A stretch of 23,276 nucleotides of DNA, taken from positions 1 to 23,276 of IMG/VR virus record IMGVR_UViG_2636415416_000005; one strand, 5' to 3'. Position 1 is the first letter of the stretch; each line of letters opens with the position of its first letter. Positions 3,001 through 6,000 of this stretch are shown piece after piece. The DNA comes from a virus. Lineage: Duplodnaviria; Heunggongvirae; Uroviricota; Caudoviricetes. Made by a program: the position numbers.

Positions 3001-6000
3001 CTGCGACATGCCCTGTTCCGTCAGCGGCAGGGTTTGTGCTTCCAGCATTGCAGCCAGTTGTTCCGGGGTACAGCCTTCCGGCAGCAGGCAGCCGACGCTT
3101 TGCAGGACGCGCCCGGACTGATAATCACCGTTGTCACAGACCTGCCACAAATAGAGTGGGGCCTGAAAACCGAGTCGCTTACCGCCGTTTATCAGTTCGC
3201 GCCAGCCTTTGTCGAGTTGCACTGTCTGGCGGCTTTGTTCTTCTGTCAGCGGCCAGATGATGCCGTCCAGCGGACGGCTGCGGCGCAGTTTTTTTAAGGC
3301 GGTCAGCAGTGTGACATCAGGCTCCGCTGATGGCCTGCCGCCATATATCAGTACTGTGTGGTCGCCCTCCAGCCAGTGTTGCCCGGTCAGCCCCGGCGCA
3401 ATAGCCTCTGCCTGTTCAGGCTCGCCGGTCACCAGCAGCAGACGGATTTTACGCCGCCAGAACGGGCCGTAGCGGTCGCGCAGGAAGGCGGCGAGTTCCA
3501 CCATTGCCGGATGACGGCTGTCGGCTTTCTTTGTCGTCACCGCACGATAGTCATCTCCGGCGGCAAGTTGTCTGCGGAGTTCAAAGTTCTGTACGGCAGC
3601 GTGGCGGTTCAGCAGATGATAAACCCCCATGATAATCAGAAAGACCACGCCTGCGGCAATCACGCCAGCCATCCAGTACATTTGCTGTGAGCTACCCGGT
3701 TCAACGCCCAGCAATGCCTGTTTACGGTGAATAAACGTGCAAAGCGCAACCACAACAGCCACGGTCATGACGATGGCAGGCCCTGAAACAGAACGGGGCC
3801 GGAGACGGTTTAATCCCGGAACCACTATGATGCCTCCTGTGGGGAAACGAATGGCGACACCACGGTCGCCCATGAATAATGCCCGCCCTGAACGCCGCTG
3901 AGCGTCAGTTGGGGGTGTTGTGATTGTATTGCCGCCAGCGTTGCCGCAGCGACGGACAGCCATGGCGCAGCCGGTCCGGAGCGCCCCAGAAAGGCATCCA
4001 GCTCGTACATCAGGGCTTCCTGAGCAAACGGCTGGTTCAGGCTTAACAACGCGGCACGTTGTTCCCTGTCCAGTTCGGCAGTCCATATGCCGGATATGGC
4101 ATATGGCTGCACCGGCATCCAGTCCAGCGCCTGTGCAATGCCTGACGCCATCATCTCTGTATCTGTGATACGTTCAGGACGATGCAGCAGGGCCAGCGGC
4201 GTAAGCGCGGTTTGCGTCAGTCGGTTTGCCAGCAACAGCGCGGTGGCGGATTCTGCCGTCCGTTCCGGGTTCTTCGGTTCAAGTCGTACGGAAATCACCA
4301 GCAGTACGGCCTTTTCCTGAATAAAGTTGTCCAGCCAGCCGTCCACGGCGGCCCGCCCCCGGCTCCGGGGCAGAAAACAGACGGGCTTCCGGGAGTCCGG
4401 CTTTTTGCCATTCGTCCTGCCAGATAGTTCTTAAAGCGCGCAAAATTATTCAAGATAGATATGGAATTCTTTCAAGATAAGCCAGAAGCGCGCATATGGA
4501 AGTTATTCAAGATAAAACAGCGGCATTAACCGCTAATGCCAGTCAGTTAAGCAACTGACTGGCTCTTTTTCGGGGCTGTGGGGTATTTCCAGGGCCTCTC
4601 CTTTACCACTCTCGGGAAGGCCCTTTCCCTTCTCGTCGGTAATTTCACAAGTTGTCCCATACTTGCAAGATCGCGCATCAGCTCCGGTATACGTCCCGGT
4701 GAAGCGCCCTGCAATGTCATCAGCATTCTCATCACCATTCCGCATGATTCTGAGAAACTCAGTTGATTCGGCCAGTAACCTTTCAGATGTTCCGCCATTT
4801 TAATCATCTGATATCTCACCAGATTATAAGCCAGTAAGACACCCCACAGCTCTTGCTCCACAAGCTCCGGCTTTTTACTTCTCAGCGTCAGCCTGCTCAG
4901 TTGCATCGTCTGTTTTATCTCCCTGTATCCCAGTTCGATTTCCCAGCGATGACTGTACAGATCCGCCATTTCTCCTCCGGGGAAGCGCATGGCGTCCGTC
5001 ATCGACGTCAGCAGATGGCAGACTTTTCCTTTGCGCGTCACGGTCAGCAGGCGGGCTGTCACTTCATTTCCCAGTCCCGGCCACTTTTTTCGTGCCTGCG
5101 GGCTGGTTTTCAGCTTCACCAGATGATCGCCTTTACCCAGTTTTCTGAGCTCTTCATATTGCGCTCCCTTTCTGAGAGGTATCATCCAGTGGCGGTGTTC
5201 TCCCGCCAGGCTCCAGGCATTTAACAGTCCCAGTGAGTAATAACCTTTATCCATTAACGTCAGAGTGTTATCGCCGGTTTGTTCTATAAGTTGCTCAGCA
5301 AGCTCATTTTCGCTGTTCTTCATCGTGCCGAAGGCTGCAGCCGTCAGCAGATGGCTGGTCAGTTCCATCTGGCAGACCATTTTGACCTGCGGGTAGAGCG
5401 CCGGGTTCCCGGCATGTGTCTGGCGGGGGAAGGCTGCATCGTTCTCTGGTGTATCCGGTGTGCGCCAGAACACACCATCGATGGCCAGCAGGGTCAGGCC
5501 GCACCAGTGCGGATGCGGCGTGGCGTTATGCCAGAGCTGCGCTGTTTTCGTGAACACGCGGCGGACAGCCTCACTTCCCAGGCGCTGGCGGGCCTGAATA
5601 ACGGCACTGGGGGCAACGAAGGGGCGATTGCCCGGCAGCATGATGTCCAGGCGATTCACAATCTGGTGAAGAGGTTCTTTACGCTCAAGCGCCATGCCAA
5701 CAATACACCAGACCATCATTTCGAGGGGAAGACGGCGCTTGCGTAGCGTTACAGTACCTGATTCGGCAAGGCAACGAGAGATGAGTTCGGGGTCGAGGTA
5801 ATCCCCCAGAGAAGTCAGTGGGTTACGCAGAGAATCGTAACGGGATACCAGATCAAGAGCCTGTCCAATGTGCATAAAAAAATCCGGAAACAAGTGAGCG
5901 TTTCCGGATTCTTACACAGCCACTGGATCGGTCAACTGATCCTTAACTGATCGGCATTACGGCATTAACCGCTGCTTTTTTATTCATTAAGTGGGATCAC

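What the first reader, a model, noticed from the sequence alone, without database searches (positions are those of the whole stretch)
4431..4520. Triplet of direct repeats at the putative phage terminus (candidate transposase-binding end sites)
Three copies of TTATTCAAGATA-like sequence, interleaved with two TATGGAA and two AAGCGCGCA copies, lie within 90 bp between mom and the T6SS ORF. Mu-type ends carry three transposase-binding repeats in a comparable span. The repeats contain TTCA but do not match the Mu consensus as I recall it, so they may represent a divergent end or an unrelated operator array.
Basis: partly seen in the sequence, partly recalled or inferred. Interest (0 to 1): 0.5.

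Follow-up and report, generated by a model that had tools for sequence, protein, structure and literature searches.

The report
Right end of a Mu-like prophage
The three repeats are very probably the transposase-docking sites at the exact right-hand end of a Mu-like "jumping" prophage inserted into an E. coli type VI secretion gene. This is a known kind of element, but its recognition sequence is different from phage Mu's and has not been described in the papers I could search.

Summary
TTCAAGATA occurs three times in the window (4449, 4471, 4506, all on the + strand), against 0.04 expected.

The prophage/host junction lies at 4431|4432. About 950 E. coli genomes carry the T6SS flank up to 4431 and then continue without the repeats. 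Four other independent insertions of the same phage all begin TAAAGCGCGC.

In a complete copy that is 97-100% identical (strain VL40), the 9-mer occurs exactly six times in 46 kb. Three lie at each terminus, in inverted orientation.

Core positions are 18/40/75 from the right tip and 18/89/141 from the left. R1 and R2 share the 22-bp phasing of Mu's R1/R2.

Relatives (Sp18-like prophages, Yersinia phage vB_YpM_5) have TTTGATAC at the same positions. Across 29 loci the motif class tracks transposase residues 121-200, which align with MuA subdomain Iβ.

Differences from Mu:
- the MuA consensus is not matched;
- R3 is direct, not inverted;
- the termini are 5'-TA;
- the target duplication is 4 bp, not 5.

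The extra TATGGAA and second AAGCGCGCA copies are not conserved. An IS4 separates the repeats from mom.

Verdict: a Mu-type attR of a new specificity class. Interest is modest. Transposase binding is inferred, not shown.

The parts
3825..4431 (-). Host flank. This is the 3' remnant of a 404-aa hypothetical gene of the T6SS cluster, next to IcmF/TssM. The prophage cuts it at 4431|4432. The last four host bases, TTCT (4428-4431), are the predicted 4-bp target duplication.
   Evidence: Matches in about 950 E. coli genomes stop at 4431. The empty site L004 reads ...ccagatagttct|cacggagg. IcmF domains are found upstream. A 4-bp duplication is seen in relatives.
4432..4436 (+). Prophage right terminus, 5'-TAAAG, reading inward. 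The cleavage/joining point is 4431|4432. The terminal dinucleotide is TA, where Mu has TG.
   Evidence: Five independent insertions with different flanks all start TAAAGCGCGC: the window, L001, L002, L005 and L088. A blastn match at 100% identity to the VL40 prophage end starts exactly at 4432.
4437..4458 (+). Site R1 (positions 6-27 from the tip): CGCGCAAAATTATTCAAGATAG. The core TTCAAGATA is at 4449-4457.
   Evidence: It has the same register as Mu R1, whose conserved inner half also ends at position 27.
4459..4480 (+). Site R2 (positions 28-49): ATATGGAATTCTTTCAAGATAA. It abuts R1, so the two sites are in 22-bp phasing.
   Evidence: The core starts at position 40 in every right end examined of both specificity classes.
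4481..4493 (+). 13-bp R2-R3 spacer, GCCAGAAGCGCGC. It holds most of the second AAGCGCGCA copy (4486-4494). The length is conserved but the sequence is not.
   Evidence: The spacer is 13 bp in the window, L092, vB_YpM_5 and Mu_JNE082796, with a different sequence in each. L088 has AAGCGCACA.
4494..4515 (+). Site R3 (positions 63-84): ATATGGAAGTTATTCAAGATAA. It has the same orientation as R1 and R2. Its inner end overlaps the U-tract of the mom terminator.
   Evidence: Mu's R3 is inverted.
4518..4533 (-). Left part of the mom terminator hairpin. Before the IS4 insertion it read AAAACAGCGGcattaaCCGCTGCTTTTTT. Positions 4521-4533 are one copy of the IS4 target duplication.
   Evidence: The IS4-free sequence is seen in L001, L002 and L005. 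The terminator scan also picks it up.
4534..5959 (-). IS4, 1426 bp, with a 448-aa transposase ORF at 4547-5893(-). It is a secondary insertion and not part of the phage end.
   Evidence: 99% identity to IS4 copies in 2867 E. coli genomes. Terminal inverted repeats and the 13-bp duplication were read. Pfam matches Nterm_IS4 and DDE_Tnp_1.
5960..5984 (-). Second copy of the IS4 target duplication, followed by the right half and T-tract of the mom terminator.
5997..6692 (-). mom, the last gene of the prophage, transcribed toward the right end.
   Evidence: Pfam Mom, E = 1e-75. Annotated as mom in VL40. About 91% nucleotide identity to mom of Mu and SfMu.

Best explanation
Window 4432-4515 is the right attachment end (attR) of a Mu-like transposable prophage. 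The prophage has transposed into a gene of an E. coli T6SS cluster.

The end consists of:
- the terminal sequence 5'-TAAAGCGCGC;
- three directly oriented 22-bp sites: R1 at 6-27, R2 at 28-49 and R3 at 63-84 from the tip;
- a site consensus of NNNNNNAANWWATTCAAGATAR.

By analogy with MuA and TnsB, one transposase monomer would dock on each site through two tethered DNA-binding subdomains. The Iβ-like subdomain (about residues 121-200 of the 698-aa transposase, which is encoded outside the window) would read the invariant inner half, TTCAAGATA. The Iγ-like subdomain and linker would read the weakly conserved, A-rich outer half.

Three matching sites sit at the left end (cores at 18/89/141, inverted). 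Together with those, the bound subunits would pair the ends, nick 3' of the terminal ...TTTA-3', and join the ends to target DNA with a 4-bp stagger.

Shown here:
- the exact terminus;
- six terminal copies in inverted orientation;
- conserved geometry;
- the 4-bp duplication;
- covariation of the motif with the Iβ-like segment.

Inferred:
- physical binding;
- which subdomain reads which half of the site;
- the chemistry;
- that the left end of this particular copy (outside the window) matches that of its 97-100% identical relatives.
For: (1) Junction. The T6SS homology in about 950 genomes stops at 4431. The empty site reads ...agttct|cacgg.

(2) Five independent insertions with unrelated flanks (a T6SS gene, vgr, molR, yhfX and an IMG/VR contig) all begin TAAAGCGCGCAAAATTATTCAAGATA.

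(3) In the complete VL40 prophage (34.6 kb, 97-100% identical over the shared parts), TTCAAGATA occurs exactly 6 times in 46 kb. Copies are at 9222, 9293 and 9345 (+) at the left end and at 43741, 43776 and 43798 (-) at the right end. The expected count is 0.17.

(4) An unsupervised search for 8-mer triplets upstream of the transposase in 39 IMG/VR loci recovers a triplet about 1.0-1.4 kb upstream (the left end) that is only TTCAAGATA x3 or TTTGATAC x3. The few other triplets lie elsewhere and look like chance. Flanks diverge exactly 17 nt upstream of the first core in about 30 insertions.

(5) Right-end geometry of 18/40/75 is identical in the window, L088, L092, vB_YpM_5, Mu_JNE082796 and four further IMG/VR ends. 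This holds even though the core motif and the sequences between cores differ.

(6) Covariation. All 6 loci with at least 75% identity to the reference in transposase residues 121-200 have TTCAAGATA. All 23 loci with about 40% identity there have TTTGATAC. This is independent of residues 1-60 (0.20-1.0) and of the core (0.87-0.99). Recombinants L020, L070 and L022/L026 separate the modules.

(7) Domain assignment. hhalign gives full-length homology to MuA (probability 99.6%). Residues 121-200 align to roughly MuA residues 100-165, within subdomain Iβ. D311 aligns to MuA D269. Domain limits are from PMC3362531. In the MuA-like TnsB complex, Iγ and the linker contact positions 5-19 and Iβ contacts positions 20-30 from the tip (PMC9371665). 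This fits a core at positions 18-26.

(8) R1/R2 22-bp phasing, and site ends at positions 27 and 49, are the same as in Mu.

(9) A 4-bp flanking duplication is found in four class-A insertions. One was verified against the uninterrupted yhfX sequence in more than 3400 genomes. The depositors of LC727881 annotate the same for a class-B relative.
Against: - No binding or transposition data exist for this lineage in anything I could search.
- The transposase and the left end are outside the window, so they are inferred from relatives.
- The MuA 22-bp consensus is not matched. At 3 mismatches there are 23 hits against 15.4 expected window-wide, and only one falls in the region, out of register.
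- The termini are TA, not the canonical TG/CA, and the duplication is 4 bp rather than 5.
- The copy in the window carries at least three IS insertions, so it may be dead: IS4, a DDE_Tnp_1 element in the tail genes, and an IS66-family element.
- The invariance of the 9-mer is partly by construction, because sites were located by exact match.
- The loci used for covariation are related to each other. The number of truly independent module swaps is small, about 3-4 recombinants.
Confidence: 0.9

Rival explanations
1. The repeats are an operator or regulatory array. They would bind the phage repressor, Ner, Com or another regulator, and control or terminate mom expression, rather than serving transposition.
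For: The repeats are tandem short repeats immediately 3' of mom. R3 overlaps the U-tract of the mom terminator.
Against: - The block begins 5 bp from the exact phage/host junction, and the same motif is found inverted at the other terminus.
- The motif class does not follow the repressor/Iα module. Transposase residues 1-60 vary from 22% to 100% identity within the TTCAAGATA class, and STEC346 and L020 have a different repressor but the same motif.
- No promoter-like site was found in the region.
- mom regulation in Mu acts upstream of com, not downstream of mom. This point rests on established knowledge and was not tested here.
Confidence: 0.03
2. The repeats are genuine terminal repeats but are bound by a factor other than the transposase. 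Candidates are a packaging protein, the MuB-like ATPase or a host nucleoid protein.
For: Binding has not been measured. The sites are AT-rich, as are IHF, HU and Fis sites.
Against: - There is perfect covariation with the Iβ-like segment of the transposase and with no other module examined.
- The register and 22-bp phasing match the MuA sites.
- Host factors would not need a different core motif in sister phages that infect the same host. This last point is inference.
Confidence: 0.04
3. The repeats are chance repeats, part of the T6SS locus, or related to the adjacent IS4.
For: Short AT-rich repeats are common. An IS4 end lies 19 bp from R3.
Against: - Three exact 9-mers occur where 0.04 are expected.
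- The block is absent from about 950-1000 T6SS loci that lack the prophage.
- It is present and identical in IS4-free copies.
- Of 111 genome-wide matches to two cores spaced 22 bp apart, only the two that also carry the terminal TAAAGCGCGC have the third core.
Confidence: 0.01

Closest known systems
Bacteriophage Mu attR (MuA-binding sites R1, R2, R3)
   Same: - It sits at the extreme right end, just past mom and its terminator.
- It has three transposase sites within about 85 bp.
- R1 and R2 are contiguous 22-bp sites ending at positions 27 and 49.
- L1 is isolated from L2 and L3 at the other end.
- The terminal 12 nt are similar (TAAAGCGCGCAA here, TGAAGCGGCGCA in Mu).
- The transposase is homologous to MuA over its full length, with Iα/Iβ/Iγ subdomains and a DDE core, and is followed by an AAA ATPase.
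- mom is about 91% identical.
   Different: - The site consensus is unrelated...AANWWATTCAAGATAR here, against TGTTTCAYTNNAARYRCGAAAR in Mu.
- R3 is direct here and inverted in Mu.
- The termini are 5'-TA rather than TG.
- The target duplication is 4 bp rather than 5 (Mu value from PMC3562280 and PMC8705779).
- The transposase is only about 25% identical to MuA.
Sp18-like Mu-like prophages of EHEC (e.g. Mu_JNE082796 in LC727881) and Yersinia phages vB_YpM_5/6
   Same: - They belong to the same transposase family: 76-81% identity overall and 87-100% in the catalytic part.
- The right-end geometry is identical (cores at 18/40/75, 13-bp R2-R3 spacer).
- There are 17 nt before the first core at both ends.
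- The terminal TAAAGCGCGCAAAAT is shared with vB_YpM_5.
- They also make a 4-bp duplication.
- Termini are TA or TG.
   Different: - The core motif is TTTGATAC instead of TTCAAGATA.
- The Iβ-like segment of the transposase (residues 121-200) is only about 40% identical.
- The L2/L3 offsets differ: 113/165 or 122/164, against 89/141 here.
- The papers on these phages that I read do not describe their ends.
[quoted passage not shown]
   Same: Each end carries several 22-bp sites for a MuA-like DDE transposase. Recognition is modular, through the Iβ and Iγ subdomains. An AAA+ partner is involved (PMC9371665).
   Different: These are transposons, not phages. They have different end sequences and a 5-bp duplication (recalled, not tested here). 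No sequence similarity was tested here.
Pseudomonas phage B3 and D3112-type transposable phages
   Same: They are transposable phages with a related transposase, about 31% identical.
   Different: B3 is reported to make a 6-bp duplication (PMC8705779). I did not examine their ends.

Membership tests
Mu-type transposable-phage attachment end (attL/attR) | The sequence lies at the exact boundary between prophage and host DNA, and flanks differ between insertions. | tested here: met
   The junction is at 4431|4432, checked against the empty site. Five right ends and about 30 left ends have unrelated flanks.
Mu-type transposable-phage attachment end (attL/attR) | The same recognition motif is present in inverted orientation at the other end, and nowhere else in the phage. 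| tested here: met
   In the VL40 prophage there are 3 copies at the left end (+), 3 at the right end (-) and none elsewhere in 46 kb. This could not be tested for the window's own copy, because its left end lies outside the window.
Mu-type transposable-phage attachment end (attL/attR) | There are three transposase sites per end. R1 and R2 are contiguous 22-bp units, and L1 is separated from L2 and L3. | tested here: met
   Cores are at 18/40/75 on the right and 18/89/141 on the left. The Mu register was read.
Mu-type transposable-phage attachment end (attL/attR) | A cognate MuA-family DDE transposase with end-binding subdomains, plus a MuB-like ATPase, is encoded by the element. | tested here: met
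   This was shown in relatives only. Pfam finds Mu-transpos_C and HTH_Tnp_Mu_1. hhalign to MuA gives probability 99.6%. An AAA ATPase gene lies downstream. The window itself ends in the tail genes.
Mu-type transposable-phage attachment end (attL/attR) | The transposase physically binds the repeats. | not testable with these tools
   There is only indirect support: the motif class covaries with the Iβ-like segment.
Phage Mu sensu stricto (MuA specificity) | The sites match the MuA 22-bp consensus (TGTTTCAYTNNAARYRCGAAAR). | tested here: not met
   A degenerate search gave 23 hits against 15.4 expected window-wide. Only one is in the region, and it is out of register. The consensus sequences were compared.
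Phage Mu sensu stricto (MuA specificity) | The termini are 5'-TG...CA-3'. | tested here: not met
   The right end is 5'-TA in all class-A copies, and the left end is TA as well. Class-B left ends are TA or TG.
Phage Mu sensu stricto (MuA specificity) | The target-site duplication is 5 bp. | tested here: not met
   The duplication is 4 bp in every case: TTTC (FDAARGOS_943), ATTC (STEC346, with the empty site verified), TGAA (VL40) and TATC (an IMG/VR contig). A 4-bp duplication is also annotated in LC727881. A 5-bp alternative fails in every case.
Phage Mu sensu stricto (MuA specificity) | R3 is inverted relative to R1 and R2. | tested here: not met
   All three cores are on the same strand. 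Mu's R3 was read as inverted.

The most novel reading that the evidence does not exclude
This lineage would be a naturally orthogonal Mu-type transposition system. It has TA-3' termini, a 4-bp target stagger and all-direct right-end sites. In it, end specificity is carried by an exchangeable Iβ-like module. Two specificity classes (TTCAAGATA and TTTGATAC) share catalytic parts that are up to 93-100% identical, the identical site geometry, and in one pair the same terminal 15 nt. If so, nature has already done the domain-swap experiment that assigns the inner half-site to Iβ. The two classes should not cross-mobilise each other's ends.
Probability: 0.55. Interest if true: 0.5.

Novelty: new variant of a known kind. 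Interest (0 to 1): 0.35.

Why it matters
For annotation, the result fixes the prophage boundary to the base (4432). It shows that a T6SS-cluster gene is disrupted by transposition. It also gives a simple signature for finding the ends of this Escherichia/Shigella lineage: TA/TG, then 15 nt, then the core at 18/40/75.

For transposition biology, the result provides a sister system to Mu that differs in three respects:
- a different recognition code;
- a 4-bp stagger, where reviews cite 5 bp for Mu and 6 bp for B3;
- natural TA versus TG variation at the otherwise conserved terminal dinucleotide.

The clean covariation of the core motif with about 80 residues of the transposase is a ready-made hypothesis for how MuA-family Iβ domains read DNA. 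It could also seed orthogonal mini-Mu tools.

None of this overturns current understanding. It extends a well-known mechanism.

Tried and rejected
- I looked for the same T6SS|prophage junction in 5,426 complete E. coli genomes. No genome has it, so the window's own left end and its predicted TTCT duplication could not be read.
- I searched for the MuA consensus in the window. It is not enriched and no hit is in register.
- An Rfam scan of the whole window found no RNA family.
- A promoter/terminator scan found no promoter-like site in the repeats. It found only the mom terminator and a hairpin at the IS4 end.
- I considered whether the second AAGCGCGCA and the TATGGAA copies are functional sub-elements. 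I rejected this. The divergent class-A end in L092, S. flexneri SFBU1023 and E. coli ECMA0423 lacks both, and L088 has AAGCGCACA. The first AAGCGCGCA is simply the terminal sequence. TATGGAA is the outer half of R2 and R3.
- The 15-mer TAAAGCGCGCAAAAT is not specific on its own: 41 of 48 IMG/VR hits are chance. Two cores 22 bp apart are also not specific across 596 Gb: 109 of 111 hits are unrelated.
- The INPHARED phage collection has no record with this class-A end. Matches to Mu, SfMu and D108 start only inside R3 or later.
- The literature searches found no description of these ends. The primary papers on the MuA Iβ subdomain and the Mu transpososome structure were not held.
- My hand-typed class-B site table has some sites off by one. 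Its information-content numbers should be ignored.
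Full report
**1. The observation**

Window 4431-4520 reads cttaAAGCGCGCAaaatTATTCAAGATAgaTATGGAAttctTTCAAGATAagccagAAGCGCGCATATGGAAgtTATTCAAGATAaaaca.
- TTCAAGATA occurs at 4449, 4471 and 4506, all on the + strand. It occurs nowhere else in the 23-kb window. The expected count is 0.04, and no shuffle reaches 3.
- AAGCGCGCA (4434, 4486) and ATATGGAA (4459, 4494) are each duplicated.

So the repeats are real and non-random.

**2. Surroundings**

- Left of 4431 lies an E. coli T6SS cluster. IcmF/TssM domains are found in ORF 693-2861, followed by a hypothetical gene.
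- Right of the repeats is a complete IS4 (4534-5959, 1426 bp). It has imperfect terminal inverted repeats and a 13-bp target duplication, CGGCATTAACCGC. It is 99% identical to IS4 copies in 2867 E. coli genomes.
- Beyond IS4 come mom (5997-6692, -), com, tail-fibre genes and tail genes of a Mu-like prophage, all on the - strand.
- With IS4 removed, the sequence matches IS4-free copies of the same phage exactly. R3 is followed by the mom terminator, AAAACAGCGGcattaaCCGCTGCTTTTTT.

**3. Where the phage ends**

- About 1000 E. coli genomes match the T6SS flank. In the roughly 950 that cover most of it, the match stops at window 4431.
- The empty site in strain S10 reads ...ccagatagttct|cacggagg. 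The repeats are therefore not part of T6SS loci that lack the prophage.
- The same end is inserted next to vgr (VL40), in molR (FDAARGOS_943), in yhfX (STEC346) and in an IMG/VR contig. It always starts TAAAGCGCGCAAAATTATTCAAGATA, with unrelated DNA before it.

The terminus is therefore 4432.

**4. The far end**

The complete VL40 prophage is 34.6 kb (L003 9205-43823). It is 97-100% identical to the window over the shared parts, and 100% identical over 4432-4534.
- In the 46-kb locus, TTCAAGATA occurs exactly six times. Three copies are at the left end on one strand and three at the right end on the other. The expected count is 0.17.
- The left end reads TATGACTAGGTAATTTATTCAAGATAA..., with cores at 18, 89 and 141 from the tip.
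- STEC346 has the same offsets, although its inter-site sequence is different.

**5. Anatomy**

Reading inward from the right tip:
- R1 is positions 6-27 (window 4437-4458).
- R2 is positions 28-49 (4459-4480).
- A 13-bp spacer follows.
- R3 is positions 63-84 (4494-4515).

Fourteen distinct class-A sites give the consensus at.g..AA.ttATTCAAGATAa. In real Mu sequence, R1 and R2 occupy the same 6-27 and 28-49 registers, with the conserved CGAAA(R) also ending at positions 27 and 49. Mu's R3, however, is inverted. Mu's L1 is likewise isolated from L2 and L3. The MuA consensus itself is not matched.

**6. Relatives and covariation**

*The transposase.* The cognate transposase is 698 aa and lies outside the window.
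- It is about 25% identical to MuA but homologous over its whole length (hhalign probability 99.6%). D311 aligns with MuA D269.
- Its nearest relatives among phage records are Yersinia phages vB_YpM_5/6 (81%) and Sp18-like Mu-like phages inserted in Stx phages (76%) (PMC10132054).

*Ends of the relatives.* Those relatives have the same end geometry: 17 nt before the first core, right-end cores at 18/40/75, and a 13-bp R2-R3 spacer. Their core is TTTGATAC.

*The mosaic junction.* The transposase is mosaic relative to that of vB_YpM_5. Residues 1-200 are 33-62% identical and residues 201-640 are 93-100% identical.

*IMG/VR loci*.
- An unsupervised search for 8-mers occurring three or more times within 220 bp found, at the left-end position about 1.0-1.4 kb upstream of the transposase, only TTCAAGATA or TTTGATAC. 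The few other triplets lie elsewhere.
- Of the 31 loci compared, 29 carry one of the two motifs. The motif class follows identity in residues 121-200 without exception. Six loci with at least 75% identity have TTCAAGATA, and 23 loci with about 40% identity have TTTGATAC.
- It does not follow residues 1-60 (the Iα/enhancer-repressor module, 0.20-1.0) or the catalytic part (0.87-0.99).
- Recombinants L020, L070 and L022/L026 separate the modules.

*Domain assignment.*
- Residues 121-200 align with MuA subdomain Iβ (domain limits from PMC3362531).
- In the structurally equivalent TnsB complex, Iγ plus the linker contact positions 5-19 and Iβ contacts positions 20-30 from the tip (PMC9371665).
- This agrees with a core at positions 18-26 being read by the Iβ-like domain.

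This covariation is the main indirect evidence that the repeats are transposase sites.

**7. Departures from Mu**

*(a) A 4-bp target duplication.* The duplicated bases are TTTC (FDAARGOS_943), ATTC (STEC346), TGAA (VL40) and TATC (IMG/VR contig 2513237361_000012).
- A 56-nt reconstruction of the STEC346 site with a single ATTC matches the intact yhfX sequence at 100% in more than 3400 genomes.
- In each case every 5-bp alternative fails.
- The depositors of LC727881 annotate a 4-bp duplication for their Mu-like insert.
- Reviews cite 5 bp for Mu and 6 bp for B3 (PMC8705779; PMC3562280).

*(b) Termini.* They are 5'-TA at both ends here. Class-B left ends vary between TA and TG.

*(c) R3 orientation.* R3 is direct.

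**8. The sub-repeats**

- The first AAGCGCGCA is the terminal sequence itself. It is shared with vB_YpM_5 and resembles Mu's TGAAGCGGCGCA.
- TATGGAA is the outer half of R2 and R3.
- The second AAGCGCGCA fills the R2-R3 spacer.
- A divergent class-A right end keeps the cores at 18/40/75 but has neither the second AAGCGCGCA nor TATGGAA. It is found in L092, and also in S. flexneri SFBU1023 and E. coli ECMA0423. L088 has AAGCGCACA.
- I therefore regard these sub-repeats as lineage-specific and not functional units. The only conserved property of the spacer is its length.

**9. Distribution**

- Class-A ends were found in 3 of 5,426 complete E. coli genomes at megablast level.
- They were also found in a handful of IMG/VR contigs, and in 2 of 185,579 species-representative genomes. 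The genome hits are all Escherichia or Shigella.
- None were found in the phage-isolate collection.

**10. State of this copy**

The end itself is intact. The prophage, however, carries IS4, a second DDE_Tnp_1 insertion of about 1.3 kb in the tail genes (about 10355-11655), and an IS66-family element where homology to VL40 stops (22388 onward). It is probably defective for virion production. Whether it can still transpose depends on genes outside the window.

**11. Verdict**

- The feature is the attR of a Mu-like transposable prophage with a recognition motif distinct from Mu's.
- The mechanism is inferred by homology and covariation. Binding has not been shown.
- It is a new variant of a well-known kind, not a new kind.

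Noticed in passing
window 4518-5984; L080 1490-1530 and 2945-2975: IS4 sits inside the mom terminator hairpin (AAAACAGCGGcattaaCCGCTGCTTTTTT), with target duplication CGGCATTAACCGC. An unrelated IS4 copy in E. coli RMDEC465, between yceK and mdoH, sits in a look-alike hairpin (AAAAAATACCGGCataaCGCCGGTATTTTT) with duplication CGGCATAACGCCG. This is why the IS4 matches extended about 20 bp into the flanks. It suggests a strong IS4 preference for terminator-like palindromes of this sequence.
   Followed up: partly
window 10355-11655 and 22388-23276: The prophage carries two more IS insertions. One is a 407-aa DDE_Tnp_1 transposase ORF (10407-11630, +) in a ~1.3-kb segment that is absent from the VL40 prophage and lies within tail genes. 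The other is an IS66-family transposase (22420-23226, -) at the point where homology to VL40 stops. The prophage is probably defective.
   Followed up: partly
window 693-4431; L004 1626-2840: The prophage interrupts a 404-aa hypothetical gene (no Pfam match) next to IcmF/TssM in the T6SS cluster. In the window the IcmF reading frame is also split into two overlapping ORFs (693-2861 and 2773-4086). That suggests a frameshift or pseudogene.
   Followed up: no
L006 490-2586 (transposase); L007; L020, L022, L026, L046, L070: Transposases of this family are sharply mosaic. The N-terminal ~60 residues (Iα-like), residues 121-200 (Iβ-like) and the catalytic part recombine independently. The junction against vB_YpM_5 falls at about residue 195 (AQNAAERLLLLAPG).
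   Followed up: yes
L012 4870-4915; L007 1455-1520; Mu L011 25-80: The L1-L2 spacer of STEC346 and of vB_YpM_5 contains a segment (GGGAGGA...GGATTTGATGGGAT) that is clearly homologous to Mu's L1-L2 spacer. The VL40-type left end lacks it. The spacer may be a separately exchangeable module, for example the site for HU or for packaging.
   Followed up: no
L003 9205; L008 1777; loci listed: The second base of the terminus varies naturally within the family. Left ends begin TA or TG, and every right end examined begins TA. This position corresponds to the conserved CA-3' of Mu and retroviruses.
   Followed up: partly
L129 5569-5660; L158 2072-2165; L092: A divergent class-A right end is found in S. 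flexneri SFBU1023 and E. coli ECMA0423. It lies at the same chromosomal flank (gcggcaccagtaata) and is not followed by the Mu-like mom terminator. This is probably a different phage backbone using the same end specificity.
   Followed up: no
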